Shown piece by piece: positions 10,367 through 61,230 of a stretch of 64,000 nt of DNA. Source of the stretch: Escherichia coli (GTDB lineage Bacteria > Pseudomonadota > Gammaproteobacteria > Enterobacterales > Enterobacteriaceae). Position 1 is the first letter of the stretch. Each line of letters opens with the position of its first letter. The position numbers and the translations under genes are program-made. A model generated the notes under the pieces. It did no database searches. It saw only the letters and a list, made by a program, of their open reading frames with translations, and was not told the DNA's origin. The DNA lies in NCBI RefSeq assembly GCF_045037415.1, contig NZ_CP173438.1; one strand, given 5' to 3'.

Positions 10367-10777
10367 TTACTGGCTCGCCGCAGCCAACTCTTCTTCTGAC
10401 ACCCCGGTAAAGCGCATGATGTCTGCAAGAGGGACTCCGGATTCAAGCATTATTTTTGCTATATGCAAGGCTTTGGATTGTTCCCCTTCCTGCCGCAATC
10501 TTTCCGCAATAGTCATTAAACTCTCCTTGTGTTTTGGTGAACGTTCGGCCACACCATCGATAAAATCGTTAAAACGTACCGCGTCGCCGGTTTGCAGTAT
10601 GTAATTAAACAGCCCTTTGATTTGTCTGTCATTTGCGTATCCACTACTTAATAAGCAGGCCATTTGCTCTACCAGTCCTATCAGATCGCGTTGACGAATA
10701 TGTTTTTGAATTAACTCCAGCAGCGCCATGCTCGCGTGCCGTCTCCGGTTGGCGTAAAAAGAGTTTGAACAGCGCAT
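10367..10777 (-). pseudogene. rpnA: 5'-truncated remnant of rpnA (yhgA), Rpn/YhgA-like recombination-promoting nuclease
   Basis: 136 aa frame resembling only the C-terminal part of Rpn/YhgA-like proteins (...LRQEGEQSKALHIAKIMLESGVPLADIMRFTGVSEEEL...); the bioH-feoC interval is only about 660 bp, too short for the recalled ~292 aa gene. Confidence 0.55.
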
Positions 10778-21135: not shown

Positions 21136-21512
21136 TTCACTGCTCCTTAGCCAATATGTATTGCCTGAATAGTAAAGTCTTTTTGGGGGTGTTAACCGCG
21201 ACAAGGCTCATAGATTTACGTATCTGGAGAAATTCATATTTGACAAAAAACTCCGTGATTCCTGTCACGAAACGGTTGCTATTATCGCAGAAATAGCATT
21301 TTAGGTGTGGAAAATGTTCTCAAAAGGTTAAATCTTGGTTTATATGGCGGGAATATTGTGAGTGGAACCGCATTCATGAATGAAATTGATGCAAATTCAA
21401 TCGGTAAAGTATCGATTCACCACGCTAACTTTTTTTGATTATTTTCTGAAAAAAGCAAAATACTACTGCCCGATGCGATAATTAACCCACCTTTTGATTC
21501 TGGATAACCAAC

Positions 21513-23316: not shown

Positions 23317-23517
23317 TCAGGGCGGGGATATAAGTTCGCCATCCATTTCAACCCGTTCAGCTTCAAAATCAGCACATACATTTGAAAAGTAAGTGCGTAG
23401 TTTTTCTGTCGCGTCATGGTCAAAAATCTGGCGTTGGTATTTGGCGACAAAGACCAGGTGAACATGCATCAGGAAAACACAATGCCTTCCACGCCGGATA
23501 TCGGTTTCTTTTTTCAT
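23317..23517 (-). pseudogene. tnpA: Truncated IS200/IS605 TnpA (HuH Y1 transposase), N-terminal fragment only
   Basis: 66 aa frame with HVHLVFVAKYQRQIF resembling the TnpA N-terminal motif (YHIVFAPKYRRQ-like); stops before the HuH and catalytic Tyr region; stop codon lies inside the left-end hairpin. Confidence 0.6.
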
Positions 23518-23539
23518 AGACCAAAATATAATTTGACCT

Positions 23540-24748
23540 GTGAAACGACTACAGGCATTTAAATTCCAGTTAAGACCCGGTGGTCAACAGGAGCGTGAAA
23601 TGAGGCGCTTCGCAGGCGCATGTCGTTTCGTTTTCAATCGTGCTCTGGCGCTTCAGAATGAGAATCATGAGGCCGGTAATAAATACATCCCTTACGGGAA
23701 AATGGCTTCCTGGCTGGTTGAGTGGAAAAATGCCACTGAAACGCAATGGCTTAAAGATTCTCCCTCACAGCCATTGCAACAGTCACTGAAAGACCTTGAG
23801 CGGGCTTACAAAAACTTCTTCCAGAAGCGGGCTGCTTTTCCCCGATTCAAAAAGCGGGGACAGAATGATGCATTCCGCTACCCGCAGGGCGTTAAGCTCG
23901 ATCAGGAAAACAGCCGTATTTTTCTGCCGAAACTTGGTTGGATGCGCTACCGGAATAGCCGTCAGGTCACGGGAGTTGTGAAAAATGTCACTGTCAGCCA
24001 GTCCTGCGGTAAGTGGTACATCAGTATTCAGACAGAAAGTGAAGTATCAACTCCGGTTCACCCTTCAGCATCAATGGTCGGGCTGGATGCTGGCGTGGCT
24101 AAACTCGCCACGCTGTCAGATGGCACAGTCTTTGAGCCTGTAAACAGTTTTCAGAAAAACCAGAAGACGCTGGCGAGACTTCAGCGACAGTTAAGCCGCA
24201 AGGTCAAATTCAGCAACAACTGGCAGAAGCAGAAACGCAAAATACAGCGGCTGCATTCCTGTATCGCAAATATCCGCAGGGACTACCTTCACAAAGTCAC
24301 AACGACCGTCAGCAAAAACCACGCAATGATAGTCATTGAGGATTTGAAGGTCAGCAACATGTCAAAGTCAGCAGCGGGTACGGTCAGCCAGCCGGGGCGC
24401 AATGTCCGGGCAAAATCAGGTTTAAACCGTTCGATACTGGATCAGGGCTGGTATGAAATGCGCCGCCAGCTTGAGCACAAGCAGCTCTGGAGTGGCGGTC
24501 AGGTGCTTGCTGTTCCGCCAGCGTACACAAGCCAGCGTTGCGCGTGCTGTGGTCATACAGCGAAAGAAAACCGCCTGTCACAAAGTAAATTCAGATGCCA
24601 GGTATGTGGATATACAGCGAACGCCGATGTAAATGGCGCTCGTAACATTTTAGCGGCGGGGCACGCCGTTCTTGCCTGTGGAGAGATGGTGCAGTCAGGC
24701 CGCCCGTTGAAGCAGGAACCCACCGAAATGATTCAGGCGACAGCCTGA
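23540..24748 (+). CDS. tnpB: TnpB (IS605 OrfB family; RuvC-like RNA-guided endonuclease family), InsQ-like
   Basis: 402 aa, GTG start; RuvC-I (VGLDAGV), RuvC-II (IVIEDLKV), zinc finger (CACCGH...CQVCG), RuvC-III ([10 protein letters not shown]); sequence recalled as IS609 InsQ-like. Confidence 0.88.
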
Positions 24749-29934: not shown

Positions 29935-29935
29935 A

Positions 29936-30060
29936 TGCGTGAAGTTTACCTGATGCATAATGCTTATCAGGCTTACGAAGTTCCTGCAATTTATTGAATT
30001 TTCAATTTTTTGTTGGCCGGATAACGCGTTCACCCGCATCCGGCATAAACAAGTGCACTT
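29936..30060. repeat. REP/BIME elements between nudE and mrcA
   Basis: gccggataacgcgttcacccgcatccggc and gcataatgcttatcaggc palindromic units. Confidence 0.65.
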
Positions 30061-30074
30061 TGTCAGCAAACTGA

Positions 30075-30098
30075 AAAAGGCGCCGAAGCGCCTTTTTA
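30075..30098. terminator. Bidirectional rho-independent terminator (nudE / mrcA)
   Basis: aaaaaggcgc-cgaa-gcgccttttt. Confidence 0.7.
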
Positions 30099-30099
30099 A

Positions 30100-34908: not shown

Positions 34909-36058
34909 CGTTCCGGTAGCTCAGGTGTTGCAGGCGCTGGCTGAACAGGAGAAGTTGAACCTGGTGGTTTCGCCAGACGTCAGCGGTACGGTGTCGTTAC
35001 ATTTAACTGACGTTCCCTGGAAGCAGGCACTACAAACTGTAGTGAAAAGCGCCGGATTGATAACGCGCCAGGAGGGCAACATTCTCTCGGTGCATTCCGT
35101 TGCCTGGCAGAATGACAATATCGCCCGCCAGGAGGCGGAGCAGACGCGGGCGCAGGCAAATCTGCCGCTGGAAAATCGCAATATTACTCTGCAATACGCC
35201 GACGCCGGAGAGCTGGCGAAAGCGGGGGAGAAGCTACTGAGTGCCAAAGGGAGTATGACCGTCGATAAACGCACCAATCGCCTTTTGCTGCGAGATAACA
35301 AAACGGCGTTAAGCACGCTTGAACAGTGGGTATCGCAAATGGATCTGCCGGTCGGGCAGGTTGAGCTGTCGGCGCATATTGTCACCATTAATGAAAAAAG
35401 TTTGCGTGAGTTAGGTGTGAAATGGACGCTGGCCGATGCGCAACAAGCTGGTGGCGTTGGGCAAGTCACCACGCTTGGCAGCGACCTCTCCGTAGCGACG
35501 GCGACAACGCATATCGGTTTTAACATTGGACGCATCAACGGACGTTTACTGGATCTTGAGCTTTCCGCGCTCGAACAAAAACAGCAGCTGGATATTATCG
35601 CCAGTCCGCGTCTGCTGGCCTCACATCTTCAGCCTGCCAGCATTAAACAGGGGAGCGAAATTCCATATCAGGTTTCCAGCGGGGAAAGTGGCGCGACGTC
35701 GGTGGAATTTAAAGAGGCCGTCCTGGGGATGGAAGTCACGCCCACGGTGTTACAAAAAGGTCGCATCCGGCTGAAATTACACATCAGCCAGAACGTTCCG
35801 GGGCAGGTGCTACAGCAGGCAGATGGCGAAGTGCTGGCGATTGATAAGCAGGAGATCGAAACGCAGGTCGAGGTCAAAAGCGGAGAAACGTTGGCGCTGG
35901 GCGGCATTTTTACCCGTAAAAATAAATCGGGTCAGGATAGCGTACCGTTGCTTGGCGACATTCCCTGGTTCGGGCAATTATTTCGTCATGACGGAAAAGA
36001 AGATGAACGACGCGAGTTAGTGGTGTTTATCACGCCACGACTGGTTTCCAGTGAGTAA
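34820..36058 (+). CDS. hofQ: HofQ secretin (PilQ/ComE-like outer membrane DNA-uptake channel)
   Basis: 412 aa with signal peptide and C-terminal secretin domain; overlaps hofP. Confidence 0.9.
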   Translation: MKQWIAALLLMLIPGVQAAKPQKVTLMVDDVPVAQVLQALAEQEKLNLVVSPDVSGTVSLHLTDVPWKQALQTVVKSAGLITRQEGNILSVHSVAWQNDNIARQEAEQTRAQANLPLENRNITLQYADAGELAKAGEKLLSAKGSMTVDKRTNRLLLRDNKTALSTLEQWVSQMDLPVGQVELSAHIVTINEKSLRELGVKWTLADAQQAGGVGQVTTLGSDLSVATATTHIGFNIGRINGRLLDLELSALEQKQQLDIIASPRLLASHLQPASIKQGSEIPYQVSSGESGATSVEFKEAVLGMEVTPTVLQKGRIRLKLHISQNVPGQVLQQADGEVLAIDKQEIETQVEVKSGETLALGGIFTRKNKSGQDSVPLLGDIPWFGQLFRHDGKEDERRELVVFITPRLVSSE

Positions 36059-36458
36059 ACAGCCGTAAAAGCGGTAATGTTTTTACGCTGAACGTGTTTC
36101 ATCTATTTGACGCGCGCAGGTATTTAGCATACAAGGAGTACCGATTTGAGAGTTGGTGCTCTTCGCTGCCTGCGTTCCATGATGATGATTTATCATTCAG
36201 GCGGCATTTTGCTGTCTTTTTTACGCTAATCTTACCCGGTGATTTATCGCCAGAGCGGTGGTAGCAAGGCAGCGCGCTTGCAGCGACCAGATATGCAGAG
36301 GGATGGGTGATTTATTCAGTTGCCAAACCCGCTGGAGTATTGAGATAATTTTCAGTCTGACTCTCGCAATATCTTATGAGGTTTCAGTTCATGTCCTGCG
36401 GCGCTCTCTGAGCGAAGCGGGTTTATCATTAACGAATAGTCTTAGTAGTACCGAAAAA

Positions 36459-36980
36459 ATGGCAGAGAAACGCAATATCTTTCTGGTTGGGCCTATGGGT
36501 GCCGGAAAAAGCACTATTGGGCGCCAGTTAGCTCAACAACTCAATATGGAATTTTACGATTCCGATCAAGAGATTGAGAAACGAACCGGAGCTGATGTGG
36601 GCTGGGTTTTCGATTTAGAAGGCGAAGAAGGCTTCCGCGATCGCGAAGAAAAGGTCATCAATGAGTTGACCGAGAAACAGGGTATTGTGCTGGCTACTGG
36701 CGGCGGCTCTGTGAAATCCCGTGAAACGCGTAACCGTCTTTCCGCTCGTGGCGTTGTCGTTTATCTTGAAACGACCATCGAAAAGCAACTTGCACGCACG
36801 CAGCGTGATAAAAAACGCCCGTTGCTGCACGTTGAAACACCGCCGCGTGAAGTTCTGGAAGCGTTGGCCAATGAACGCAATCCGCTGTATGAAGAGATTG
36901 CCGACGTGACCATTCGTACTGATGATCAAAGCGCTAAAGTGGTTGCAAACCAGATTATTCACATGCTGGAAAGCAACTAA
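36459..36980 (+). CDS. aroK: Shikimate kinase I
   Basis: 173 aa product starting [19 protein letters not shown] (Walker A); the listed 240 aa frame is an upstream in-frame extension. Confidence 0.94.
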
Positions 36981-42904: not shown

Positions 42905-42932
42905 AAAAAAACCGGGGAAACCCGGTTTTTTT
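42905..42932 (+). terminator. Rho-independent terminator of the aroK...trpS transcription unit
   Basis: aaccggg-gaaa-cccggtt followed by tttttt. Confidence 0.75.
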
Positions 42933-43050
42933 ATCCTCATTTGCAATAATCCGAAAAAATGTGAAGCGCCTCGCCGTTTCCACATCTCGCTGTTGCGCCT
43001 TATCTTCAAATTCATGAAGATATAAACATTCATTTTATTGAAAATATATT

Positions 43051-43956
43051 ATGCGTCGAACGTTTATCAAAAAAGAAGGCGTCGTTATCACGACACTGGC
43101 CCGTTATTTGTTGGGTGAAAAGTGCGGTAATCGACTGAAAACCATAGATGAGCTGGCAACTGAATGCCGTTCATCGGTTGGCCTGACGCAGGCCGCGTTG
43201 AAAACGCTGGAATCAAGCGGAGCGATACGGATTGAACGCCGTGGGCGCAATGGCAGTTATCTGGTTGAGATGGATAACAAAGCATTGCTGACTCATGTGG
43301 ATATCAACAACGTGGTATGTGCGATGCCCTTGCCCTATACCCGTTTGTACGAAGGCCTGGCGAGCGGATTGAAAGCCCAGTTTGATGGCATTCCTTTTTA
43401 CTATGCGCATATGCGCGGCGCGGATATTCGCGTGGAGTGTTTACTTAACGGCGTGTATGACATGGCGGTGGTTTCGCGACTGGCGGCGGAAAGTTATCTC
43501 ACGCAAAAAGGATTATGCCTCGCGCTGGAGTTGGGACCGCATACCTACGTTGGCGAGCACCAGTTGATTTGCCGTAAAGGCGAGTCCGCAAACGTGAAGC
43601 GCGTGGGGCTGGATAACCGTTCGGCGGATCAGAAAATCATGACCGATGTCTTTTTTGGCGATAGTGATGTGGAACGAGTCGATCTCTCTTATCACGAGAG
43701 TTTACAACGCATTGTTAAAGGCGATGTTGACGCGGTTATCTGGAACGTAGTGGCGGAAAACGAACTGACCATGCTGGGATTAGAAGCGACGCCGCTCACA
43801 GACGATCCGCGATTTTTACAGGCCACCGAAGCCGTGGTCCTGACGCGAGTCGATGATTACCCAATGCAACAACTGCTGCGTGCAGTTGTTGATAAACATG
43901 CCCTGCTTGCTCATCAACAGCGAGTAGTCAGTGGGGAACAGGAACCCAGTTATTAA
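43051..43956 (+). CDS. yhfZ: Putative transcriptional regulator YhfZ
   Basis: 301 aa; N-terminal HTH-like region followed by a periplasmic-binding-protein-like fold; first gene of the yhf cluster. Confidence 0.8.
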   Translation: MRRTFIKKEGVVITTLARYLLGEKCGNRLKTIDELATECRSSVGLTQAALKTLESSGAIRIERRGRNGSYLVEMDNKALLTHVDINNVVCAMPLPYTRLYEGLASGLKAQFDGIPFYYAHMRGADIRVECLLNGVYDMAVVSRLAAESYLTQKGLCLALELGPHTYVGEHQLICRKGESANVKRVGLDNRSADQKIMTDVFFGDSDVERVDLSYHESLQRIVKGDVDAVIWNVVAENELTMLGLEATPLTDDPRFLQATEAVVLTRVDDYPMQQLLRAVVDKHALLAHQQRVVSGEQEPSY

Positions 43957-43972
43957 ACGAAAGGCATCTGAT

Positions 43973-44335
43973 ATGGAAACCAGACTCAACCTGCTTTGCG
44001 ATGCAGGCGTTATTGATAAGGACATCTGCAAAGGCATGATGCAGGTCGTCAATGTACTGGAAACAGAGTGCCATCTACCGGTGCGCAGTGAGCAAGGAAC
44101 GATGGCGATGACACATATGGCGAGTGCACTGATGCGCAGTCGCCGTGGTGAAGAAATAGAGCCGCTGGATGACGAATTGCTGGCGGAACTGGCGCAATCC
44201 AGCCACTGGCAAGCCGTTGTGCAATTGCATCAGGTATTGTTGAAGGAATTTGCACTGGAAGTTAACCCGTGTGAAGAAGGCTATTTGCTGGCCAACCTTT
44301 ATGGATTATGGATGGCTGCTAACGAAGAGGTTTGA
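43973..44335 (+). CDS. yhfY: YhfY, uncharacterized (PRD-like) protein
   Basis: 120 aa product starting METRLNLLCDAG inside the listed 134 aa frame. Confidence 0.75.
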   Translation: METRLNLLCDAGVIDKDICKGMMQVVNVLETECHLPVRSEQGTMAMTHMASALMRSRRGEEIEPLDDELLAELAQSSHWQAVVQLHQVLLKEFALEVNPCEEGYLLANLYGLWMAANEEV

Positions 44336-44418
44336 AGCTCCCGATAAATCCACGTCGTACAACCTAAATATTCAAAAAAATGAATATTTAATTCAAGGAA
44401 CAGAAACGAGGCAACAAG

Positions 44419-45582
44419 ATGTTTGTAGAAGCATTGAAACGCCAGAACCCGGCGCTGATTTCCGCCGCACTAAGTTTGTGGCAGCAGGGCAAGATCGCCC
44501 CGGACAGTTGGGTGATCGACGTGGATCAAGTTCTGGAAAACGGCAAGCGGCTGATTGAGACGGCGCGGCTTTACGGCATTGAACTGTATCTGATGACCAA
44601 ACAATTCGGTCGTAATCCGTGGCTGGCAGAAAAACTGCTGGCTCTGGGCTACAGCGGCATTGTGGCGGTGGATTACAAAGAGGCGCGAGTCATGCGCCGC
44701 GCCGGTTTGCCGGTAGCGCATCAGGGGCATCTGGTACAAATCCCTTGTCATCAGGTTTCTGACGCCGTTGAACAGGGAACCGACGTCATCACTGTGTTTA
44801 CCCTCGACAAAGCGCGGGAAATTTCTGCGGCAGCGGTGAAGGCCGGACGTGTGCAGTCTGTGCTGCTCAAAGTTTATAGCGACGATGATTTTCTTTATCC
44901 GGGGCAGGAGAGCGGTTTTGTACAGCATTCGCTGCACGAGGTGGTTGCTGAAATCCAGAATCTGCCGGGGCTACATTTGGCGGGACTTACCCATTTCCCT
45001 TGCCTGCTTTGGGATGAGGCTGCCGGGAAAGTTTTGCCGACACCGAATCTTCACACGCTGGTACAAGCACGGGATCAACTGGCGAAATCTGGTATTGCGA
45101 TTGAGCAACTGAACGCGCCTTCAGCGACCAGCTGCACGTCGCTGCCATTGCTGGTGGAATACGGTGTGACTCATACCGAACCCGGTCATGCGCTGACGGG
45201 CACTATTCCGGCAAACCAGCGGGGCGATCAGCCTGAACGTATCGCGATGCTCTGGTTAAGTGAAATCTCCCATCATTTCCGTGGCGACAGCTACTGCTAC
45301 GGCGGCGGTTACTACCGTCGTGGTCACGCGCAACATGCGCTGGTGTTTACGCCAGAAAATCAAAGAATTACTGAAACATATCTCAACGCCGTGGATGACA
45401 GCAGTATCGACTACACCCTGCCGCTGGCAGGCGAGCATCCGGTAAGCAGTGCAGTGGTGCTCTGTTTTCGCACGCAGATTTTTATCACCCGTAGCGATGT
45501 GGTGTTGGTGTCCGGTATTCACCATGGCGAACCAGAAATAGTTGGTCGTTATGACAGCCTCGGCAACCCTCTGGAGGCGTAA
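44419..45582 (+). CDS. yhfX: YhfX, fold-type III PLP enzyme (alanine racemase-like)
   Basis: 387 aa; matches recalled K-12 YhfX. Confidence 0.85.
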   Translation: MFVEALKRQNPALISAALSLWQQGKIAPDSWVIDVDQVLENGKRLIETARLYGIELYLMTKQFGRNPWLAEKLLALGYSGIVAVDYKEARVMRRAGLPVAHQGHLVQIPCHQVSDAVEQGTDVITVFTLDKAREISAAAVKAGRVQSVLLKVYSDDDFLYPGQESGFVQHSLHEVVAEIQNLPGLHLAGLTHFPCLLWDEAAGKVLPTPNLHTLVQARDQLAKSGIAIEQLNAPSATSCTSLPLLVEYGVTHTEPGHALTGTIPANQRGDQPERIAMLWLSEISHHFRGDSYCYGGGYYRRGHAQHALVFTPENQRITETYLNAVDDSSIDYTLPLAGEHPVSSAVVLCFRTQIFITRSDVVLVSGIHHGEPEIVGRYDSLGNPLEA

Positions 45583-46809
45583 ATGGCGCGATTTGTGGTG
45601 TTAGTGATTGATAGCTTTGGCGTAGGGGCAATGAAAGATGTCACGTTGGTGCGTCCGCAGGATGCCGGGGCGAATACCTGTGGTCACATCCTGAGCCAGT
45701 TGCCGCATTTGCAGCTACCAACGCTGGAGACGCTGGGGCTAATCAACGCATTGGGTTATGCGCCTGGCGATATGCAGCCGTCAGACTCCGCAACCTGGGG
45801 CGTGGCAGAGCTGCAACATGAAGGTGGCGATACCTTTATGGGGCATCAGGAAATTTTAGGTACGCGCCCATTACCGCCGCTGCGGATGCCCTTTCGTGAT
45901 GTGATTGACCGTGTTGAGCAGGCATTAGTTTCCGCTGGCTGGCAGGTTGAGCGTCGTGGCGATGATCTGCAATTTCTGTGGGTCAATCAGGCGGTTGCGA
46001 TTGGCGATAATCTCGAGGCGGATTTAGGTCAGGTCTATAACATCACCGCCAATCTCTCTGTGATCTCTTTTGACGACGCAATCAAAATGGGTCGTATCGT
46101 GCGTGAGCAGGTACAGGTCGGTCGGGTCATTACATTTGGTGGCCTGTTAACCGACAGCCAGTGCATCCTCGATGCCGCAGAAAGCAAAGAAGGGCGCTTT
46201 ATTGGTATCAATGCGCCGCGTTCTGGCGCCTATGACAACGGTTTCCAGGTCGTACATATGGGCTACGGTGTCGATGAAAAAGTGCAGGTGCCGCAAAAAC
46301 TGTATGAAGCGGGCGTGCCAACCGTGCTGGTGGGTAAGGTGGCAGATATCGTCAGCAATCCTTATGGCGTGAGCTGGCAAAACCTGGTGGATAGCCAGCG
46401 GATTATGGATATCACCCTCAACGAATTTAACACCTATCCGACGGCGTTTATTTGTACCAATATCCAGGAAACCGACCTCGCTGGTCATGCAGAAGACGTC
46501 GCACGTTATGCCGAACGTTTGCAGGTCGTTGACCGTAACCTTGCCCGGCTTGTTGAGGCGATGCAGCCAGATGATTGCCTGGTCGTGATGGCGGATCACG
46601 GTAACGATCCGACCATCGGTCACAGCCACCATACCCGCGAAGTGGTGCCAGTGCTGGTTTATCAGCAAGGACTGGTCGCTACGCAGCTCGGTGTGCGCAC
46701 CACGCTTTCTGATGTGGGGGCTACCGTGTGTGAATTTTTCCGTGCGCCACCGCCACAAAATGGTCGCTCTTTTCTTTCCTCCTTCCGGTTTGCAGGAGAC
46801 ACCCTATGA
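45583..46809 (+). CDS. yhfW: YhfW, phosphopentomutase-like metalloenzyme
   Basis: 408 aa; start 1 bp after yhfX stop. Confidence 0.85.
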
Positions 46810-47684
46810 GTTTTGATCCGACGGGCTACACCCTCGCCCATGAGCATCTGCATATTGATCTTTCCGGCTTTAAAAACAACGTGGACTGCCGCCTTGATCA
46901 GTATGCGTTCATTTGCCAGGAGATGAACGACCTGATGGCCCGGGGCGTGCGTAATGTGATTGAGATGACCAACCGTTACATGGGGCGCAATGCGCAATTT
47001 ATGCTCGATGTAATGCGCGAAACCGGGATCAACGTGGTGGGCTGTACCGGTTATTACCAGGACGCGTTTTTCCCGGAACATGTGGCGACCCGCAGCGTGC
47101 AGGAACTGGCGCAGGAGATGGTCGATGAAATTGAGCAGGGTATCGATGGCACTGACCTGAAAGCCGGAATTATCGCGGAGATCGGCTCCAGCGAAGGGAA
47201 GATTACGTCGCTGGAAGAGAAGGTGTTTATTGCCGCCGCGCTGGCGCATAACCAGACCGGACGCCCGATCTCCACGCATACGTCGTTCAGCACGATGGGG
47301 CTGGAGCAACTGGCTCTGTTGCAAGCCCACGGAGTTGATCTTTCGCGCGTCACCGTCGGCCACTGCGATCTGAAAGACAATCTCGACAACATTTTGAAGA
47401 TGATCGATCTCGGCGCGTATGTGCAGTTCGACACCATCGGCAAGAACAGTTACTACCCGGACGAAAAGCGCATTGCGATGCTCCATGCGCTACGTGACCG
47501 TGGGTTGCTGAACCGCGTCATGCTGTCGATGGATATTACGCGGCGCTCTCATTTAAAAGCCAACGGTGGTTATGGCTATGACTTTTTATTGACCACCTTT
47601 ATTCCGCAATTGCGCCAGTCAGGATTCAGTCAGGCCGATGTGGATGTGATGTTACGTGAAAATCCCTCTCAATTTTTCCAATAA
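46806..47684 (+). CDS. php: Phosphotriesterase homology protein (amidohydrolase superfamily)
   Basis: 292 aa; N-terminal HxH metal ligands ([10 protein letters not shown]); overlaps yhfW stop. Confidence 0.9.
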
Positions 47685-47694
47685 GGACAGACTC

Positions 47695-48048
47695 ATGAAA
47701 AAGATTGGCGTTGCAGGCTTACAGCGTGAGCAGATTAAAAAAACCATTGAAGCGACGGCTCCTGGCTGTTTTGAAGTTTTCATTCACAACGACATGGAAG
47801 CGGCAATGAAAGTGAAATCCGGACAACTGGATTACTACATCGGCGCGTGTAATACCGGTGCGGGCGCAGCCTTGTCGATTGCTATCGCGGTGATTGGCTA
47901 TAACAAAAGTTGCACCATTGCCAAGCCGGGCATTAAAGCGAAAGACGAACATATCGCCAAAATGATCGCTGAAGGAAAAGTGGCGTTTGGCCTTTCCGTT
48001 GAGCACGTTGAACACGCGATTCCGATGCTGATTAACCATCTAAAATAA
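47695..48048 (+). CDS. yhfU: YhfU, small uncharacterized protein (DUF2620-like)
   Basis: 117 aa product starting MKKIGVAGLQ inside the listed 130 aa frame. Confidence 0.8.
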   Translation: MKKIGVAGLQREQIKKTIEATAPGCFEVFIHNDMEAAMKVKSGQLDYYIGACNTGAGAALSIAIAVIGYNKSCTIAKPGIKAKDEHIAKMIAEGKVAFGLSVEHVEHAIPMLINHLK

Positions 48049-48059
48049 AAGGCACGACT

Positions 48060-49364
48060 ATGGATCTGTATATTCAGATTATCGTGGTGGCGTGCCTGAC
48101 GGGTATGACATCGCTTCTGGCGCATCGCTCGGCGGCCGTTTTTCATGACGGTATCCGCCCGATCCTGCCACAACTGATTGAAGGCTATATGAACCGTCGC
48201 GAGGCGGGGAGCATCGCTTTTGGTCTGAGCATTGGTTTTGTGGCCTCGGTGGGGATCTCTTTTACCCTGAAAACCGGGCTGCTCAACGCATGGTTACTCT
48301 TTCTTCCTACCGATATCCTCGGCGTACTGGCGATAAACAGCCTGATGGCGTTTGGTCTTGGTGCTATCTGGGGAATATTGATCCTCACCTGTCTGTTGCC
48401 AGTAAACCAGCTGCTGACCGCGCTACCGGTGGATGTATTAGGTAGCCTGGGGGAATTAAGCTCGCCGGTGGTTTCAGCTTTTGCACTGTTCCCGTTGGTG
48501 GCGATTTTCTACCAGTTTGGCTGGAAGCAAAGTCTGATCGCCGCCGTGGTGGTACTGATGACTCGTGTGGTGGTAGTACGCTATTTCCCACATCTTAACC
48601 CTGAATCCATCGAAATCTTTATTGGCATGGTGATGCTGCTGGGGATCGCAATAACTCATGACCTGCGTCATCGTGATGAAAATGATATCGATGCCAGCGG
48701 TATGTCGGTGTTTGAAGAGCGTACATCACGGATTATCAAAAACTTACCGTATATCGCCATCGTGGGTGCATTGATTGCTGCCGTTGCCAGCATGAAGATT
48801 TTCGCCGGTAGTGAAGTGTCGATCTTCACACTGGAGAAAGCGTACTCCGCAGGCGTAACGCCGGAACAATCGCAAACACTAATCAACCAGGCGGCACTGG
48901 CAGAATTTATGCGCGGGCTGGGTTTTGTGCCGTTGATTGCCACCACGGCGTTAGCCACCGGCGTGTATGCAGTTGCGGGCTTTACCTTTGTTTATGCGGT
49001 GGGCTATCTCTCGCCGAATCCGATGGTTGCAGCGGTATTAGGCGCAGTGGTTATTTCGGCGGAAGTCTTGCTGCTTCGTTCTATCGGCAAATGGTTGGGG
49101 CGCTACCCGTCGGTACGTAATGCGTCGGATAACATCCGTAACGCCATGAATATGCTGATGGAAGTGGCGTTGCTGGTCGGTTCGATCTTTGCAGCAATCA
49201 AAATGGCGGGCTATACCGGATTCTCTATCGCGGTTGCCATTTACTTCCTCAACGAATCCCTGGGCCGTCCGGTACAGAAAATGGCGGCACCGGTCGTGGC
49301 AGTAATGATCACCGGCATCCTGCTGAATGTTCTTTACTGGCTTGGCCTGTTCGTTCCGGCTTAA
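48060..49364 (+). CDS. yhfT: YhfT, inner membrane permease-like protein
   Basis: 434 aa strongly hydrophobic polytopic ORF. Confidence 0.85.
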   Translation: MDLYIQIIVVACLTGMTSLLAHRSAAVFHDGIRPILPQLIEGYMNRREAGSIAFGLSIGFVASVGISFTLKTGLLNAWLLFLPTDILGVLAINSLMAFGLGAIWGILILTCLLPVNQLLTALPVDVLGSLGELSSPVVSAFALFPLVAIFYQFGWKQSLIAAVVVLMTRVVVVRYFPHLNPESIEIFIGMVMLLGIAITHDLRHRDENDIDASGMSVFEERTSRIIKNLPYIAIVGALIAAVASMKIFAGSEVSIFTLEKAYSAGVTPEQSQTLINQAALAEFMRGLGFVPLIATTALATGVYAVAGFTFVYAVGYLSPNPMVAAVLGAVVISAEVLLLRSIGKWLGRYPSVRNASDNIRNAMNMLMEVALLVGSIFAAIKMAGYTGFSIAVAIYFLNESLGRPVQKMAAPVVAVMITGILLNVLYWLGLFVPA

Positions 49365-49375
49365 GGAAGGCACCT

Positions 49376-50461
49376 ATGAAGACGTTTCCTCTGCAAAGCC
49401 TGACGCTTATTGAGGCGCAGCAAAAGCAGTTTGCGCTGGTGGACACGATTTGCCGTCATTTTCCTGGCAGCGAGTTTCTTACCTGCGGTGATTTGGGCTT
49501 AACGCCGGGGCTAAATCAGCCCCGCATTACCCAGCGTGTGGAACAGGTGCTGGCTGACGCGTTTCACGCACAGGCCGCGGCGCTGGTACAGGGCGCGGGT
49601 ACTGGCGCGATCCGTGCGGCGCTGGCAGCTTTGCTCAAATCGGGGCAGCGTCTTCTGGTGCATGACGCGCCGGTTTATCCAACGACGCGCGTCATTATTG
49701 AGCAGATGGGGCTAACGCTCATTACGGCTGATTTCAATGATCTGTCGGCACTGAAGCAGGTTGTTGACGAGCAACAACCTGATGCCGCGCTGGTGCAGCA
49801 TACGCGCCAGCAGCCGCAGGACCGCTATGTGCTGGCAGACGTGCTGGCAACGTTGCGCGCGGCAGGTGTTCCAGCGTTAACCGATGACAACTATGCGGTG
49901 ATGAAGGTAGCGCGAATCGGCTGCGAATGCGGGGCGAATGTGTCGACATTTTCCTGCTTCAAGCTATTTGGGCCAGAGGGCGTTGGTGCGGTGGTAGGCG
50001 ATGCCGATGTTATTAGCCGGATTCGCGCCACGCTCTATTCCGGCGGCAGTCAGATTCAGGGGGCGCAGGCATTAGAGGTGTTGCGTGGTCTGGTGCTCGC
50101 GCCAGTGATGCACGCGGTGCAGGCGGGGGTATCTGAACGGTTGCTGGCTTTGCTTAACGGCGGCGCGGTGGCGGAAGTGAAAAGCGCCGTCATTGCCAAT
50201 GCACAGTCGAAGGTATTGATTGTGGAGTTTCATCAGCCGATTGCCGCCAGAGTGCTGGAAGAGGCGCAGAAACTCGGTGCCTTGCCTTACCCGGTTGGTG
50301 CAGAGTCGAAATATGAAATCCCGCCGCTCTTTTATCGACTTTCCGGAACGTTTCGCCAGGCGAATCCGCAGTTAGAACATTGCGCGATTCGCATTAACCC
50401 AAATCGCGGCGGTGAAGAGACGATATTGCGGATCTTGCGTGAAAGTATTGCCAGCATTTAA
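49376..50461 (+). CDS. yhfS: YhfS, PLP-dependent aminotransferase-like protein
   Basis: 361 aa; last gene of the yhf cluster. Confidence 0.85.
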   Translation: MKTFPLQSLTLIEAQQKQFALVDTICRHFPGSEFLTCGDLGLTPGLNQPRITQRVEQVLADAFHAQAAALVQGAGTGAIRAALAALLKSGQRLLVHDAPVYPTTRVIIEQMGLTLITADFNDLSALKQVVDEQQPDAALVQHTRQQPQDRYVLADVLATLRAAGVPALTDDNYAVMKVARIGCECGANVSTFSCFKLFGPEGVGAVVGDADVISRIRATLYSGGSQIQGAQALEVLRGLVLAPVMHAVQAGVSERLLALLNGGAVAEVKSAVIANAQSKVLIVEFHQPIAARVLEEAQKLGALPYPVGAESKYEIPPLFYRLSGTFRQANPQLEHCAIRINPNRGGEETILRILRESIASI

Positions 50462-50568
50462 TCGTTGTAAACGATATTTTCGAAAAGAATGCAGAAACAA
50501 ATACGCCCTCGGATAACTCCGAGGGCGTCAGGCAATTAAACCGGCGTTAGCCGATTTCTGTCAGAGAC

Positions 50569-50736
50569 TTACTGTGCAGTCGGACCGCAACCGCCAATGA
50601 TTTTAGAAATAGAAATTGCCGGGTGCAGCAGGTAGTCGTAAGAGCAGTTCTTATCACGGTTTTCAATATGACCAGTACATGCAGTTAACGTAGCCAGTAC
50701 TGCGCCTACCAGTGCAACTTTAATAAATTTGTTCAT
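50569..50736 (-). CDS. yhfL: Small lipoprotein YhfL
   Basis: Not in ORF track (55 aa): minus-strand translation MNKFIKVALVGAVLATLTACTGHIENRDKNCSYDYLLHPAISISKIIGGCGPTAQ with lipobox LTAC. Confidence 0.85.
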   Translation of the reverse strand: MNKFIKVALVGAVLATLTACTGHIENRDKNCSYDYLLHPAISISKIIGGCGPTAQ

Positions 50737-50957
50737 TTACATTCCCTATGTATTATATATTAATTAATATTCATTGATTATATGAATATAAGCAGACTGC
50801 TCATTAAGAACGATACAGGAATATTCAATTAGCGTCAGTGAGCGATTGGCTTAATTTTGTAAGTTGCTGTAACGGTGAATATAACCCATTAGCAGACAAT
50901 ATTTATTAAGGGGTTATATTTTTATCTGCTGAATATATAAAGAGAGTTGTAAACGAA

Positions 50958-50985
50958 AAAGGCCAGACTTCTCTGGCCCTGGTTA
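50958..50985 (-). terminator. Rho-independent terminator downstream of cysG
   Basis: ggccagag-aagt-ctggcc hairpin followed by a T-run on the minus strand. Confidence 0.6.
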
Positions 50986-50987
50986 AA

Positions 50988-52361
50988 TTAATGGTTAGAG
51001 AACCAGTTCAATTTATCGCGCAGGCCAACAACCCGACCAATAATAATTAGCGATGGACTGTTCATTTGCTGCGCCAGTTCGCCCAGCTGCGTGAGCGTAC
51101 CGTCAATCACGCGCTGCGTGACTGCCGTTCCGTTTTCGACAATTGCTACCGGCATTTCACCAGGCATACCGTATTCAATCAGCTTTTGCTGAATAGTTGC
51201 AGCCTGATTCAGCCCCATATAAAACACCAGCGTCTGTTTTTCTGCCGCCAGGTTTTCCCAGTCCAGCTCGCCACCGGTTTTTAAGTGTCCAGTAATTAAG
51301 CGTACGCTCTGGGCATAATCGCGATGCGTGAGCGGAATACCCGAATAGGCAGAGCAACCAGAGGCTGCGGTAATACCCGGAACCACCGAGAATGGAATAC
51401 CCGCGTTGCACAGTGTTTCCAGCTCTTCGCCACCACGGCCAAAAATAAACGGATCGCCGCCTTTCAGCCGCACCACGCGTTTGCCTTTTTGCGCTTCCCG
51501 CAGCAGGATCTGGTTAATCTCTTCCTGCGGTACGCAGTGGTATCCCGCGCGTTTGCCGACGAAAACGCGATCAGCATCGCGGCGTACCAGATTCATAATA
51601 TCGTCAGAAACCAGACGGTCGTAGACCACCACATCTGCCTGCTGAATTTGTTGCAGACCTTTCAGTGTCAGCAGCCCGGCATCGCCCGGACCTGCACCAA
51701 CCAGCACCACTTCACCGCGATGATCGAGCGGTTCATTGATTAACTGTTCGGTGGTTTCAGTAATGGCTTTCTGATCGTTGTTGGCCAGCGACTGCGCCAG
51801 GCGGTCATTAACGAACAATTTCTCCCAGAAACGGCGACGCTCACCCATCGTGGCGAACTGTTGTTTCACTCGCCCGCGTAATTGCCCGGCGTATTTCGCT
51901 ACCTGGCCCAGATGTAACGGCAGCAGTGATTCGAGTTTTTCGCGCAACAGGCGCGCCAGAACCGGAGAGGTGCCGCCAGAGGAAACCGCTACCATGAGCG
52001 GCGAGCGGTCAATAATCGACGGCATAATAAAGCTGGCGGCTTTCGGCGCATCGACCACGTTACAGAAGATGCGACGAGCTTCAGCGGCTTCGCTGACGCG
52101 CTGGTTAAGCGCGTCATCATCCGTCGCTGCAATCGCCAGCCAGCAGGTGTCGAGAAGGCTTTCATCAAATGGCCCTTCGACGAGGGTTAACATGCCTGCA
52201 TCTGCCCATGCGGTGAACTGTGGAATAAACGCTAATGCATTCACCGTTAAGCGAGCGCCTGCGTCTAACAGCAACCTTGCTTTGCGTTCCGCGACATCAC
52301 CACCGCCGACAATCAGACAGTCGCGATCGCGTAATTGGCAAAATATAGGCAAATGATCCAC
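50988..52361 (-). CDS. cysG: Siroheme synthase (uroporphyrinogen-III methyltransferase / dehydrogenase / ferrochelatase)
   Basis: 457 aa; N-terminal Rossmann plus C-terminal SUMT domain. Confidence 0.95.
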
Positions 52362-58569: not shown

Positions 58570-58737
58570 GTGAAGAAACTCACCGATAAGCAAAAGTCCC
58601 GTCTCTGGGAGCTTCAGCGTAATCGTAATTTCCAGGCCAGTCGCCGTCTTGAAGGCGTCGAGATGCCTTTAGTCACTCTTACTGCCGCAGAGGCTTTAGC
58701 GCGCCTTGAAGCGCTGAGGAGGCACTATGAGCGATAA
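58570..58737 (+). CDS. yhfG: YhfG, small protein (FicA-type antitoxin-like partner of Fic)
   Basis: Not in ORF track (55 aa, GTG start): (M)[54 protein letters not shown]; overlaps fic start by 11 bp. Confidence 0.75.
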
Positions 58738-59329
58738 ATTCGGCGAAGGGCGCGATCCATATCTCTACCCGGGTCTCGATATCATGCGTAACAAGCTCAA
58801 CATCCGCCAGCAGCAGCGGCTGGAACAGGCCGCTTACGAAATGACGGCGCTGCGTGCTGCGACCATTGAGCTTGGTCCGCTGGTGCGCGGTTTACCGCAT
58901 TTGCGCACTATCCATCGCCAGCTGTATCAGGATATTTTCGACTGGGCAGGGCAACTGCGTGAAGTTGATATTTATCAGGGAGATACGCCGTTCTGCCACT
59001 TTGCCTATCTCGAAAAAGAGGGCAATGCCCTGATGCAGGATTTGGAGGAAGAGAAGTATCTGACTAGCCTTGAGAAAGATAAATTCGTCGAGCGGTTGGC
59101 GCATTACTATTGTGAAATCAACGTGCTGCATCCCTTCCGGGTGGGAAGTGGTTTGGCACAGCGGATCTTCTTCGAGCAACTGGCGATTCATGCCGGATAT
59201 CAACTGAGCTGGCAGGGTATCGAAAAAGAGGCCTGGAATCAGGCAAATCAGAATGGGGCAATGGGGGATCTCACCGCGCTGCAGATGATATTTAGCAAAG
59301 TGGTAAGCGAAGTCGGGGAATCTGAGTAA
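58727..59329 (+). CDS. fic: Fic-family protein (filamentation induced by cAMP)
   Basis: 200 aa; Fic fold with motif region reading [12 protein letters not shown]. Confidence 0.9.

Positions 59330-59994: not shown

Positions 59995-61230
<1,236 letters not shown>

What the first reader, a model, noticed from the sequence alone, without database searches (positions are those of the whole stretch)
50569..50736. Genes below the ORF-track cut-off: yhfL (and yhfG) found only by manual translation
Both 55 aa genes are absent from the supplied track but read cleanly (yhfL with signal peptide and lipobox LTAC). Other sub-60 aa genes may therefore be hidden in the larger intergenic regions, for example 36059-36458 and 21136-21512.
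Basis: seen in the sequence. Interest (0 to 1): 0.2.

Follow-up and report, generated by a model that had tools for sequence, protein, structure and literature searches.

The report
Known small genes yhfL and yhfG
The 55-codon reading frame is the known E. coli gene yhfL for a tiny, highly conserved lipoprotein of unknown function. It was missed only because of a length cut-off, and the two intergenic regions suspected of hiding more small genes hold conserved regulatory sequence, not conserved protein genes.

Summary
Window 50569-50736 (minus strand) is an intact 55-aa ORF with an ATG start, an AGGGA ribosome-binding site, its own promoter and a terminator. It is yhfL (Pfam DUF4223, E 5e-38). 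The protein is identical to the K-12 one and conserved across Enterobacterales, with a coding-type substitution pattern (pN/pS about 0.25). The lipobox Cys20 and two further cysteines are invariant. yhfG (58570-58737, plus strand, GTG start) is the structurally solved Fic antitoxin EcFicA.

Both genes are long annotated, so nothing here is new.

In pckA-yhgE (21136-21512) and hofQ-aroK (36059-36458), no ORF is conserved in start, length and peptide across genera. One more sub-60-aa gene annotated in K-12 does exist elsewhere: yrfJ, 17 aa, at 60005-60058, overlapping the argD start.

The hofQ-aroK spacer holds a strong promoter and a roughly 100-nt aroK leader. The leader has an invariant 5' hairpin and a second hairpin supported by compensatory changes in 79 Enterobacterales loci. 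It has no Rfam match. An invariant upstream block remains unexplained.

Interest in the finding as stated is low. The aroK leader is the only lead worth following.

The parts
50569..50736 (-). yhfL coding sequence, 55 aa plus stop (DUF4223/YhfL family small lipoprotein)
   Evidence: ORF. Pfam E 5e-38. RefSeq annotation in a genome that is collinear with the window and differs by 9 SNPs over 64 kb. Protein identical to K-12 b3369; the 2 nucleotide differences are both synonymous.
50680..50736 (-). Signal peptide, residues 1-19 (MNKFIKVALVGAVLATLTA); lipobox L17-T18-A19-C20 spans 50677-50688
   Evidence: Read directly from the sequence; pattern check. In 22 genera L17 and C20 are invariant, while the hydrophobic core varies in sequence.
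50572..50679 (-). Mature peptide, residues 20-55, with invariant C20, C31 and C50 and the conserved block CSYDYLLHPAISISKIIGGCGP
   Evidence: Alignment A1.
50743..50747 (-). Shine-Dalgarno AGGGA, 6 nt before the ATG
   Evidence: Anti-SD duplex dG -5.9 kcal/mol, against a median of -5.75 for the 56 annotated features of the window scored (two of them pseudogenes); coordinates.
50777..50807 (-). yhfL promoter, TTAATG-19 nt-TATAAT (K-12 has TTAACG-19-TATAAT)
   Evidence: Sequence. Genomic SELEX found a constitutive RpoD promoter in the K-12 cysG>yhfL spacer with exactly this motif, flagged H-NS (PMC3946193), and an RpoS-holoenzyme peak in the same spacer (PMC5493296).
50493..50529 (-). Intrinsic terminator of yhfL: 11-bp stem, 8 G-C pairs, then ATTTGTTTCT
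   Evidence: The hairpin is also present in K-12, with loop and stem changes that keep the stem.
58570..58737 (+). yhfG (EcFicA), 55 aa, GTG start; antitoxin-like inhibitor of Fic with the SRRLEG motif at residues 24-29
   Evidence: PMC5033356.
58727..59329 (+). fic (EcFicT), overlapping yhfG by 11 nt
   Evidence: Pfam PF02661 E 2.1e-13.
60005..60058 (+). yrfJ, 17 aa ([17 protein letters not shown]); starts 5 nt before the argD ATG, in another frame
   Evidence: K-12 annotation b4820; the exact K-12 sequence is in the window. The PGAP record of the near-identical genome does not annotate it.
   Evidence: 10 of 12 consensus matches with TG. TTGCCAAAC sits about 130-146 nt before the aroK ATG in Enterobacterales.
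36357..36458 (+). aroK leader: hairpin P1 (CUGAcUCUC 36357-36365 with GAGGuuUCAG 36378-36387), hairpin P2 (36395-36421), then a nearly invariant single-stranded tail up to the ATG; aroK has no SD
36129..36150 (+). Invariant block ATACAAGGAGTACCGATTTGAG (AAGGAG plus TTG of the 27-aa ORF 36146-36229); function unexplained
21240..21296 (+). Best candidate ORF in pckA-yhgE (18 aa, TTG); judged non-coding: its TTG lies in a TTGACA hexamer and its conserved part is the palindrome CGTGATTCCTGTCACG (21254-21269)

Best explanation
The flagged ORF is yhfL, a free-standing single-gene unit with its own sigma-70/sigma-S-recognised promoter and an intrinsic terminator. It encodes a 55-aa prolipoprotein. 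Inferred route, from established lipoprotein biogenesis: Sec export, diacylglyceryl transfer to Cys20 by Lgt, signal-peptide cleavage by LspA, N-acylation by Lnt. Because residue +2 is Thr rather than Asp, the Lol system should then sort it to the inner leaflet of the outer membrane. The 36-residue mature peptide is the conserved part. Its two other invariant cysteines (C31, C50) most likely form a DsbA-made disulfide that closes a 20-residue loop carrying the invariant YDY..HP..S.SK.IGG residues. The most likely role is as a small lipid-anchored partner of another envelope protein, as short lipoproteins such as LptM are. That last step is a guess: no phenotype has been confirmed. yhfG, the second gene named, is the known Fic inhibitor EcFicA. 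Neither gene is new; both were missed only because they fall below a 60-aa cut-off.
For: Gene identity: Pfam DUF4223 E 5e-38; RefSeq 'YhfL family protein' at the same coordinates in a genome differing from the window by 9 SNPs; K-12 b3369 'DUF4223 domain-containing lipoprotein YhfL' with an identical protein. Selection: 269 homologues at E<=1e-3 across Enterobacterales. In 22 genera the mature part is nearly invariant while the signal peptide varies, with L17, C20, C31 and C50 invariant. Against Salmonella, Serratia and Xenorhabdus, 21-28 of 37-44 differences fall at third codon positions, and pN/pS is 0.23-0.28. Expression signals: SD at median strength, terminator, RpoD and RpoS SELEX promoters in the cysG>yhfL spacer, mRNA assayed by qRT-PCR as a cysG-adjacent control gene in S. 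Choleraesuis. Independence: the neighbours differ in Salmonella (bigA/trpS), Serratia (DUF1176/speFL) and Xenorhabdus (NUDIX/Kdo hydroxylase), always with long upstream spacers. yhfG: PDB 5JFF/5JFZ chain B E 2.5e-29; SRRLEG inhibition motif and stable 1:1 complex with Fic (PMC5033356). Intergenic regions.
Against: Lipidation, outer-membrane location, the disulfide and any partner are inferred from sequence only. The AlphaFold2 model is poor (mean pLDDT 64.5, 51-66 over the mature part). No solved relative exists, and gene neighbourhood gives no functional hint. The only reported phenotype, enrichment of two yhfL CRISPRi spacers in a Salmonella IgA-escape screen, was not reproduced by a deletion mutant (PMC12070745). 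One source labels the product a 'conserved secreted peptide'. Translation of short non-conserved ORFs in the intergenic regions cannot be excluded by comparative analysis alone, and the ribosome-profiling tables I could reach were truncated or not held.
Confidence: 0.9

Rival explanations
1. The two intergenic regions do encode translated small ORFs. These would be regulatory upstream ORFs whose act of translation matters rather than their peptide: the TTG ORF at 36146-36229, the mini-ORF at 36391-36411 in the aroK leader, or 21240-21296 upstream of yhgE.
For: 36146: AAGGAG 7 nt before a TTG, duplex dG -8.0, with SD and TTG invariant in 24 of 24 Enterobacteriaceae. 36391: GAGG 9 nt before an ATG kept in 23 of 24 Enterobacteriaceae, with 14-18 codons in most genera. 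21240: start kept in E. coli, Salmonella and Klebsiella, with a similar 11-aa N-terminus.
Against: 36146: lengths of 4-55 aa, which I judge no different from chance (not tested), peptides unrelated after residue 4, frameshifted in E. albertii; in Yersinia, Serratia and Rahnella the SD degrades to AAGGGT while the block stays recognisable. 36391: the ATG becomes TAGG in Yersiniaceae, Pectobacteriaceae, Morganellaceae and Hafniaceae, and CTG in Pantoea, while GAGGTTTCAGTT stays. Its GAGG is the 3' strand of the invariant hairpin P1, and the E. coli ORF is only 6 codons. 21240: no SD in Klebsiella, poor spacing in E. coli, TTG inside TTGACA, and the conserved part is a 16-nt palindrome. None is annotated in K-12, whose record includes small proteins such as the 17-aa yrfJ. 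None hits Pfam or NCBIfam.
Confidence: 0.15
2. YhfL is exported but not lipid-anchored to the outer membrane. It would instead be a soluble periplasmic or secreted peptide cut by signal peptidase I, or an inner-membrane-retained lipoprotein.
For: One published table calls it a 'conserved secreted peptide' (PMC5493296).
Against: The lipobox is kept as (T/S)-L-(T/S)-(A/G)-C with L17 and C20 invariant in all 22 genera. That conservation would be unnecessary for signal peptidase I cleavage. Residue +2 is Thr or Ser, never Asp, so under the E. coli +2 rule (established knowledge) inner-membrane retention is not expected. K-12 curators annotate it as a lipoprotein.
Confidence: 0.08
3. The 55-aa frame is a chance ORF in an A+T-rich spacer, carried along in annotation by habit.
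For: Chance ORFs of this size are common in the window. No function or confirmed phenotype is known.
Against: Full-length Pfam match at 129 bits. 69-100% identity over the full length in distant genera with different genomic neighbours. Third-position-biased divergence with pN/pS about 0.25. Promoter, SD and terminator are correctly placed.
Confidence: 0.01

Closest known systems
YhfL / DUF4223 family (Pfam PF13978; E. coli K-12 b3369)
   Same: Identical protein sequence to K-12 YhfL. Full-length HMM match. Same position next to cysG, and the same promoter and terminator.
   Different: In K-12 the frlABCDR operon follows yhfL; here yhfS follows directly. The -35 hexamer is TTAATG instead of TTAACG.
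LptM (YifL), a short outer-membrane lipoprotein that assists maturation of the LPS translocon
   Same: Very small enterobacterial lipoprotein with a short mature peptide. A weak, sub-threshold NCBIfam hit exists (E 0.11, 12.6 bits against a cut-off of 27.7).
   Different: The hit covers only residues 1-20, the signal peptide and lipobox. The mature parts are unrelated, so this is an analogy for how YhfL might work, not membership.
FicA/VbhA class I Fic antitoxins (for yhfG)
   Same: Small gene immediately upstream of and overlapping fic; SRRLEG fits [S/T]xxxE[G/N]; solved complex 5JFF/5JFZ.
   Different: The window protein differs from the crystallised one at two C-terminal residues (E48A, S51R). 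No adenylylation activity has been shown for E. coli Fic (PMC5033356).
5'-terminal stabilising stem-loops and structured leaders of enterobacterial mRNAs, such as the ompA 5' UTR (for the aroK leader)
   Same: A hairpin starts 2-3 nt after the predicted transcription start, followed by a second conserved hairpin and an A/U-rich, SD-less initiation region.
   Different: No Rfam family matches. The function is untested and the transcription start is predicted, not mapped.

Membership tests
YhfL / DUF4223 (PF13978) | Full-length match to the family HMM above the gathering score | tested here: met
   E 5e-38, 129.2 bits against 27; residues 1-54 on profile positions 1-54 of 54.
YhfL / DUF4223 (PF13978) | Conserved mature-peptide residues (C31, YDY, HP, S.SK.IGGCG, C50) | tested here: met
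   All are present in the window protein and invariant in 22 genera.
Bacterial lipoprotein (Lgt/LspA/Lnt substrates) | N-terminal signal peptide with positive n-region, hydrophobic core, and lipobox [LVI][ASTVI][GAS]C | tested here: met
   K3 and K6; VALVGAVLATL; L-T-A-C at residues 17-20; regular-expression match at residues 10-20.
Bacterial lipoprotein (Lgt/LspA/Lnt substrates) | Actual lipid modification of the +1 Cys and LspA cleavage | not testable with these tools
   Needs globomycin sensitivity, palmitate labelling or mass spectrometry.
Outer-membrane (Lol-sorted) lipoprotein | No Asp at position +2 (no Lol-avoidance signal) | tested here: met
   +2 is Thr in the window and Thr or Ser in all 22 aligned sequences. 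Localisation itself was not tested.
Class I Fic antitoxin (FicA/VbhA) - yhfG | [S/T]xxxE[G/N] inhibition motif | tested here: met
   S24-R-R-L-E28-G29 in the window translation; the motif is described for EcFicA in PMC5033356.
Class I Fic antitoxin (FicA/VbhA) - yhfG | Encoded directly upstream of, and co-oriented with, a fic gene | tested here: met
   yhfG 58570-58737 overlaps fic 58727-59329 by 11 nt; Fic domain PF02661.
   starts are lost, or lengths range 4-55 aa with unrelated peptides; the ATG at 36391 is absent outside two families.
   The Stringer 2021 supplement is truncated in the library. Supplements for Weaver 2019 and Meydan 2019 are not held.
Any Rfam family (aroK leader) | Covariance-model match at the gathering score | tested here: not met
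   No matches in the whole window. Only chance-level hits at E 0.3 and 2.9 in 36000-36520.

The most novel reading that the evidence does not exclude
The hofQ-aroK spacer carries an order-wide conserved, structured leader for the aroK-aroB-damX-dam-rpe-gph-trpS operon that is in no Rfam family. It has a 5'-terminal invariant hairpin, a second hairpin kept by compensatory changes, and an invariant SD-less initiation region. A separate invariant upstream block (AAGGAGTACCGATTTG) is followed in E. coli by a hairpin and a U-tract. Together they could be an undescribed cis-regulatory RNA, or a short transcript, controlling expression of shikimate kinase and Dam methylase.
Probability: 0.35. Interest if true: 0.4.

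Novelty: already known. Interest (0 to 1): 0.1.

Why it matters
For the scan, this is a calibration point. A 60-aa ORF cut-off hides three annotated genes in this 64-kb window: yhfL, yhfG and yrfJ. One of them is a structurally characterised toxin-antitoxin-like component. The result also shows that an RBS-supported ORF in a well-conserved spacer is not enough. In hofQ-aroK, the conserved 'SD plus start codon' pairs turn out to belong to non-coding elements once more distant genera are compared.

Biologically, YhfL remains one of the most conserved enterobacterial lipoproteins with no known function. It is always monocistronic and sits in varying neighbourhoods. The conserved aroK leader, if functional, would bear on how Dam methylase and shikimate kinase levels are set.

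Tried and rejected
1. Ribosome-profiling evidence. The Stringer 2021 supplement is held but truncated: what I could read or search held nothing for 3.49-3.53 Mb. No supplements are held for Weaver 2019 or Meydan 2019. So there is no direct translation data for any candidate.

2. NCBIfam for YhfL. No family at E<=0.01. At E<=1 there is only a signal-peptide-level hit to LptM, which I rejected as homology.

3. Structure. The AlphaFold2 model of YhfL built from 22 sequences has mean pLDDT 64.5, too low for a meaningful fold search, so none was run. There is no PDB sequence relative.

4. Gene-neighbourhood inference for YhfL. No neighbour is conserved in Salmonella, Serratia or Xenorhabdus.

5. 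aroK look-up by exact protein. This returned only E. coli-type loci, so a degenerate DNA pattern scan of species genomes was used instead.

6. RNAalifold on a plain MAFFT alignment. It found only hairpin P1 and missed P2, because the interior of P2 is unalignable. Per-sequence folds and a covariance model were needed.

7. P2 as an intrinsic terminator or attenuator. Rejected because the U-tract (UUUAUCAUU in E. coli) is GUAUCAUC in Erwiniaceae.

8. The whole-leader fold of E. coli alone is not more stable than shuffles (z 0.06). The region 36140-36232 gives z -1.7. Single-sequence energy therefore gives no support.

9. Literature search for yrfJ and for an aroK leader or promoter found nothing relevant.

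10. Pfam and NCBIfam scans of the ten longest RBS-supported intergenic ORFs gave no hits.

Full report
**What the window is.** A 1.5-kb stretch around the finding (window 49900-51400) is 100% identical to several ST131-type E. coli chromosomes. The whole window is collinear with NZ_AP018784.2 positions 332902-396901 and differs from it by 9 SNPs in 64,000 bases. That record's RefSeq annotation therefore maps one-to-one onto window coordinates. The window runs from malT to crp. I used the curated K-12 record for the same region as a second reference.

**The observation.** On the minus strand, 50736 down to 50569 is an ATG-to-TAA frame of 55 codons: MNKFIKVALVGAVLATLTACTGHIENRDKNCSYDYLLHPAISISKIIGGCGPTAQ.
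- The ORF alone proves nothing, because one search lists dozens of chance ORFs of similar or greater length.
- The product matches Pfam DUF4223 over its full length (E 5e-38).
- RefSeq annotates it as yhfL at exactly this place.
- The protein is identical to K-12 YhfL, and the two nucleotide differences are both synonymous.
- The AGGGA ribosome-binding site has a duplex energy of -5.9 kcal/mol, the median strength for genes of this window.
- A strong intrinsic terminator follows at 50493-50529.
- A TTAATG-19-TATAAT promoter lies at 50777-50807.
- In K-12 the same promoter (TTAACG-19-TATAAT) was recovered by genomic SELEX with RpoD holoenzyme, and the spacer also gave an RpoS-holoenzyme peak (PMC3946193 and PMC5493296).

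**Is yhfL under selection as a protein?** Yes.
- 269 homologues were found, all carrying PF13978, in Escherichia, Salmonella, Citrobacter, Cronobacter, Serratia, Erwinia, Mixta, Hafnia, Edwardsiella, Xenorhabdus and others, at 69-100% identity.
- In an alignment of 22 genera the signal-peptide core varies freely, while L17, C20, C31, Y33-D34-Y35, H38-P39, S42, S44-K45, I47-G48-G49-C50-G51 are invariant.
- At the DNA level, E. coli compared with Salmonella, Serratia and Xenorhabdus shows 21-28 of 37-44 differences at third codon positions, with pN/pS of 0.23-0.28.
- The gene stands alone. Its neighbours are bigA and trpS in Salmonella, DUF1176 and speFL-speF in Serratia, and NUDIX and Kdo-hydroxylase genes in Xenorhabdus, with upstream spacers of about 190-480 nt (190 in Salmonella, about 460-480 in Serratia and Xenorhabdus).

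**How YhfL most likely works.**
- *Shown by sequence:* a positive n-region, a hydrophobic core and the lipobox LTAC.
- *Inferred from established lipoprotein biogenesis:* Lgt, LspA and Lnt processing at Cys20, then Lol-dependent transfer to the outer membrane, because +2 is Thr or Ser and never Asp.
- *Inferred from invariance:* a C31-C50 disulfide stapling the conserved loop.
- *A guess:* that it acts as a small lipid-anchored partner of an envelope protein, by analogy with LptM.

There is no solved relative. The AlphaFold2 model is of low confidence. The one screen hit in Salmonella was not reproduced by a deletion mutant.

**yhfG.** 58570-58737 (plus strand) is a 55-codon frame with a GTG start and a GGGAGG ribosome-binding site (dG -11.1). 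It overlaps fic by 11 nt. It matches Pfam YhfG, NCBIfam NF007573 and PDB 5JFF/5JFZ chain B. It is EcFicA, the class I Fic inhibitor. Its SRRLEG segment inserts into the Fic active site, and it forms a stable 1:1 complex with Fic (PMC5033356). The motif is intact in the window.

**Rescan for other small genes.** I enumerated every ATG, GTG or TTG ORF of 10-99 codons and scored ribosome-binding sites against the 16S 3' end. For each of the 28 intergenic regions of 60 bp or more, I listed the ORFs with a duplex energy of -4 kcal/mol or stronger. The ten longest hit no Pfam or NCBIfam family.

The K-12 record, which does carry at least one very small protein (the 17-aa yrfJ), annotates only one further sub-60-aa gene in this stretch. 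This is yrfJ (17 aa), which starts 5 nt before argD in another frame. Its exact sequence is at window 60005-60058. K-12 annotates nothing in hofQ-aroK or pck-yhgE.

**pckA-yhgE (21136-21512).** Exact look-up of OmpR, which is identical across genera, returned loci that I identified through their PckA proteins as Salmonella enterica and Klebsiella pneumoniae. Of the four RBS-supported ORFs:
- two lose their start codon in at least one genus;
- one is cut to 7 codons in Salmonella;
- one (21240-21296) keeps a start, but runs 18, 24-30 or 35 codons with divergent C-terminal parts, has no SD in Klebsiella, and has its TTG inside a TTGACA hexamer. Its conserved part coincides with the palindrome CGTGATTCCTGTCACG.

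These look like promoter and operator DNA. Candidates in feoA-yhgF and greB-ompR are not conserved either.

**hofQ-aroK (36059-36458).** A degenerate DNA pattern for the AroK N-terminus retrieved 120 named species loci. An alignment of 24 Enterobacteriaceae shows two invariant blocks.

*Block A* (36129-36150, ATACAAGGAGTACCGATTTGAG) contains a perfect AAGGAG 7 nt before the TTG of a 27-codon ORF.
- The TTG is kept in 24 of 24 genomes, but the ORF is 4-55 codons long with unrelated peptides, and is frameshifted in E. albertii.
- In Yersinia, Serratia and Rahnella the block survives as TTACAAGGGTTACCGAATTGAG.
- It is therefore a conserved nucleotide element, not a protein gene. Its function is unexplained.
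- In E. coli it is followed by a hairpin and a U-tract at about 36165-36224.

*Block B* is a strong promoter, TTGCCA-18-TG-GATAAT at 36320-36349, followed by the aroK leader.
- The apparent GAGG plus ATG mini-ORF at 36391 (6 codons in E. coli, 14-18 elsewhere) loses its ATG in Yersiniaceae, Pectobacteriaceae, Hafniaceae and Morganellaceae (TAGG), and in Pantoea (CTG). GAGGTTTCAGTT stays conserved throughout.
- The GAGG is the 3' strand of an invariant hairpin, CUGAcUCUC/GAGGuuUCAG, that starts 2-3 nt after the predicted transcription start.

*A second hairpin, P2* (36395-21), forms in 75 of 76 distinct sequences, with completely different interiors.
- A covariance model built from 15 sequences finds it once in 79 of 87 sources searched (the window and 86 loci), and once in the window at 36378-36437.
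- On that alignment the 6-bp outer helix is 93% paired, and 3 of its 6 pairs show compensatory changes.
- Over all nine modelled pairs, no shuffle out of 500 reached the observed covariation score, and slid registers paired only 45-58%.
- Caveat: the alignment is fitted to the model.
- aroK itself has no SD, and the 40 nt before its ATG are nearly invariant.
- Rfam has nothing here.
- A Salmonella Tn-seq study noted a fitness effect of insertions in this spacer (PMC7242855). I read that as polarity on damX and dam.

**Verdict.** The proposed extension to the two named spacers is not supported at the level of conserved protein genes. Translation of non-conserved upstream ORFs cannot be excluded without ribosome-profiling data, which I could not reach. 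One further annotated micro-gene (yrfJ) exists elsewhere in the window. The aroK leader structure and block A are the only items with any novelty potential. Both are by-products of the check, not part of the finding.

Noticed in passing
window 36357-36458 (+): The aroK 5' leader is conserved across Enterobacterales. It has an invariant 5'-terminal hairpin, a second hairpin (36395-36421) kept by compensatory changes in 79 loci, and a nearly invariant SD-less region before the ATG. No Rfam family matches.
   Followed up: partly
window 36107-36227 (+): Invariant block TTGACG...ATACAAGGAGTACCGATTTGAG, exact in 24 Enterobacteriaceae and recognisable in Yersinia, Serratia and Rahnella. In E. coli it is followed by a long hairpin and a U-tract. 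It could be a second aroK promoter, a short transcript, or a binding site; it is unexplained. The 8-mer AGTACCGA recurs just before the aroK ATG.
   Followed up: partly
window 36059-36980: The hofQ-aroK spacer plus all of aroK (922 bp) has no differences from K-12, while flanking genes differ by about 1-4% (hofQ 2.3%, aroB 1.1%). Ten other E. coli contexts differ at 2 sites or fewer in the 400-bp spacer. This reflects either strong constraint or a shared recombination tract.
   Followed up: partly
window 50462-50502 (yhfS-yhfL junction): The fructoselysine operon frlABCDR, which lies between yhfL and yhfS in K-12 (about 5.3 kb), is absent here. Homology to K-12 ends right after the yhfL terminator, and 31 nt unique to this arrangement precede the yhfS stop. 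2107 of 5426 complete E. coli genomes match the junction as one contiguous piece.
   Followed up: partly
window 23335-24748: A truncated transposase fragment and an intact insQ (TnpB-type RNA-guided endonuclease, IS200/IS605 family) are inserted between yhgE and hslO. K-12 has only a 62-bp spacer there.
   Followed up: no
window 10367-10741 (-): rpnA is a truncated pseudogene (375 nt, N-terminus missing), against an intact 879-nt gene in K-12.
   Followed up: no
window 29935-30099: The nudE-mrcA spacer differs from K-12 at 15 of 165 positions (9%), far more than any other segment compared in the 24.8-42.9 kb stretch.
   Followed up: no
window 42909-50462: The yhfZ-yhfS cluster is 95.0% identical to K-12, clearly lower than the flanking blocks (96.8-98.1%). 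Salmonella lacks this cluster entirely: yhfL there sits between bigA and trpS (L145).
   Followed up: no
L006 and L014, 8101-8773 (between envZ and pckA): Some E. coli carry a RelE-like plus HTH (toxin-antitoxin-type) gene pair inserted between envZ and pckA. It is absent from the window, where that spacer is 76 bp.
   Followed up: no
window ~21475 (pckA-yhgE spacer): There is a single-base deletion relative to K-12 and three other E. coli contexts (CTGCCC-GATGCG against CTGCCCGGATGCG), about 40 nt upstream of the yhgE start.
   Followed up: no
L005, L011, L012 (Klebsiella pneumoniae-type loci): yhgE is absent. pckA is followed directly by hslO, so the pckA upstream spacer there borders a different gene.
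   Followed up: no
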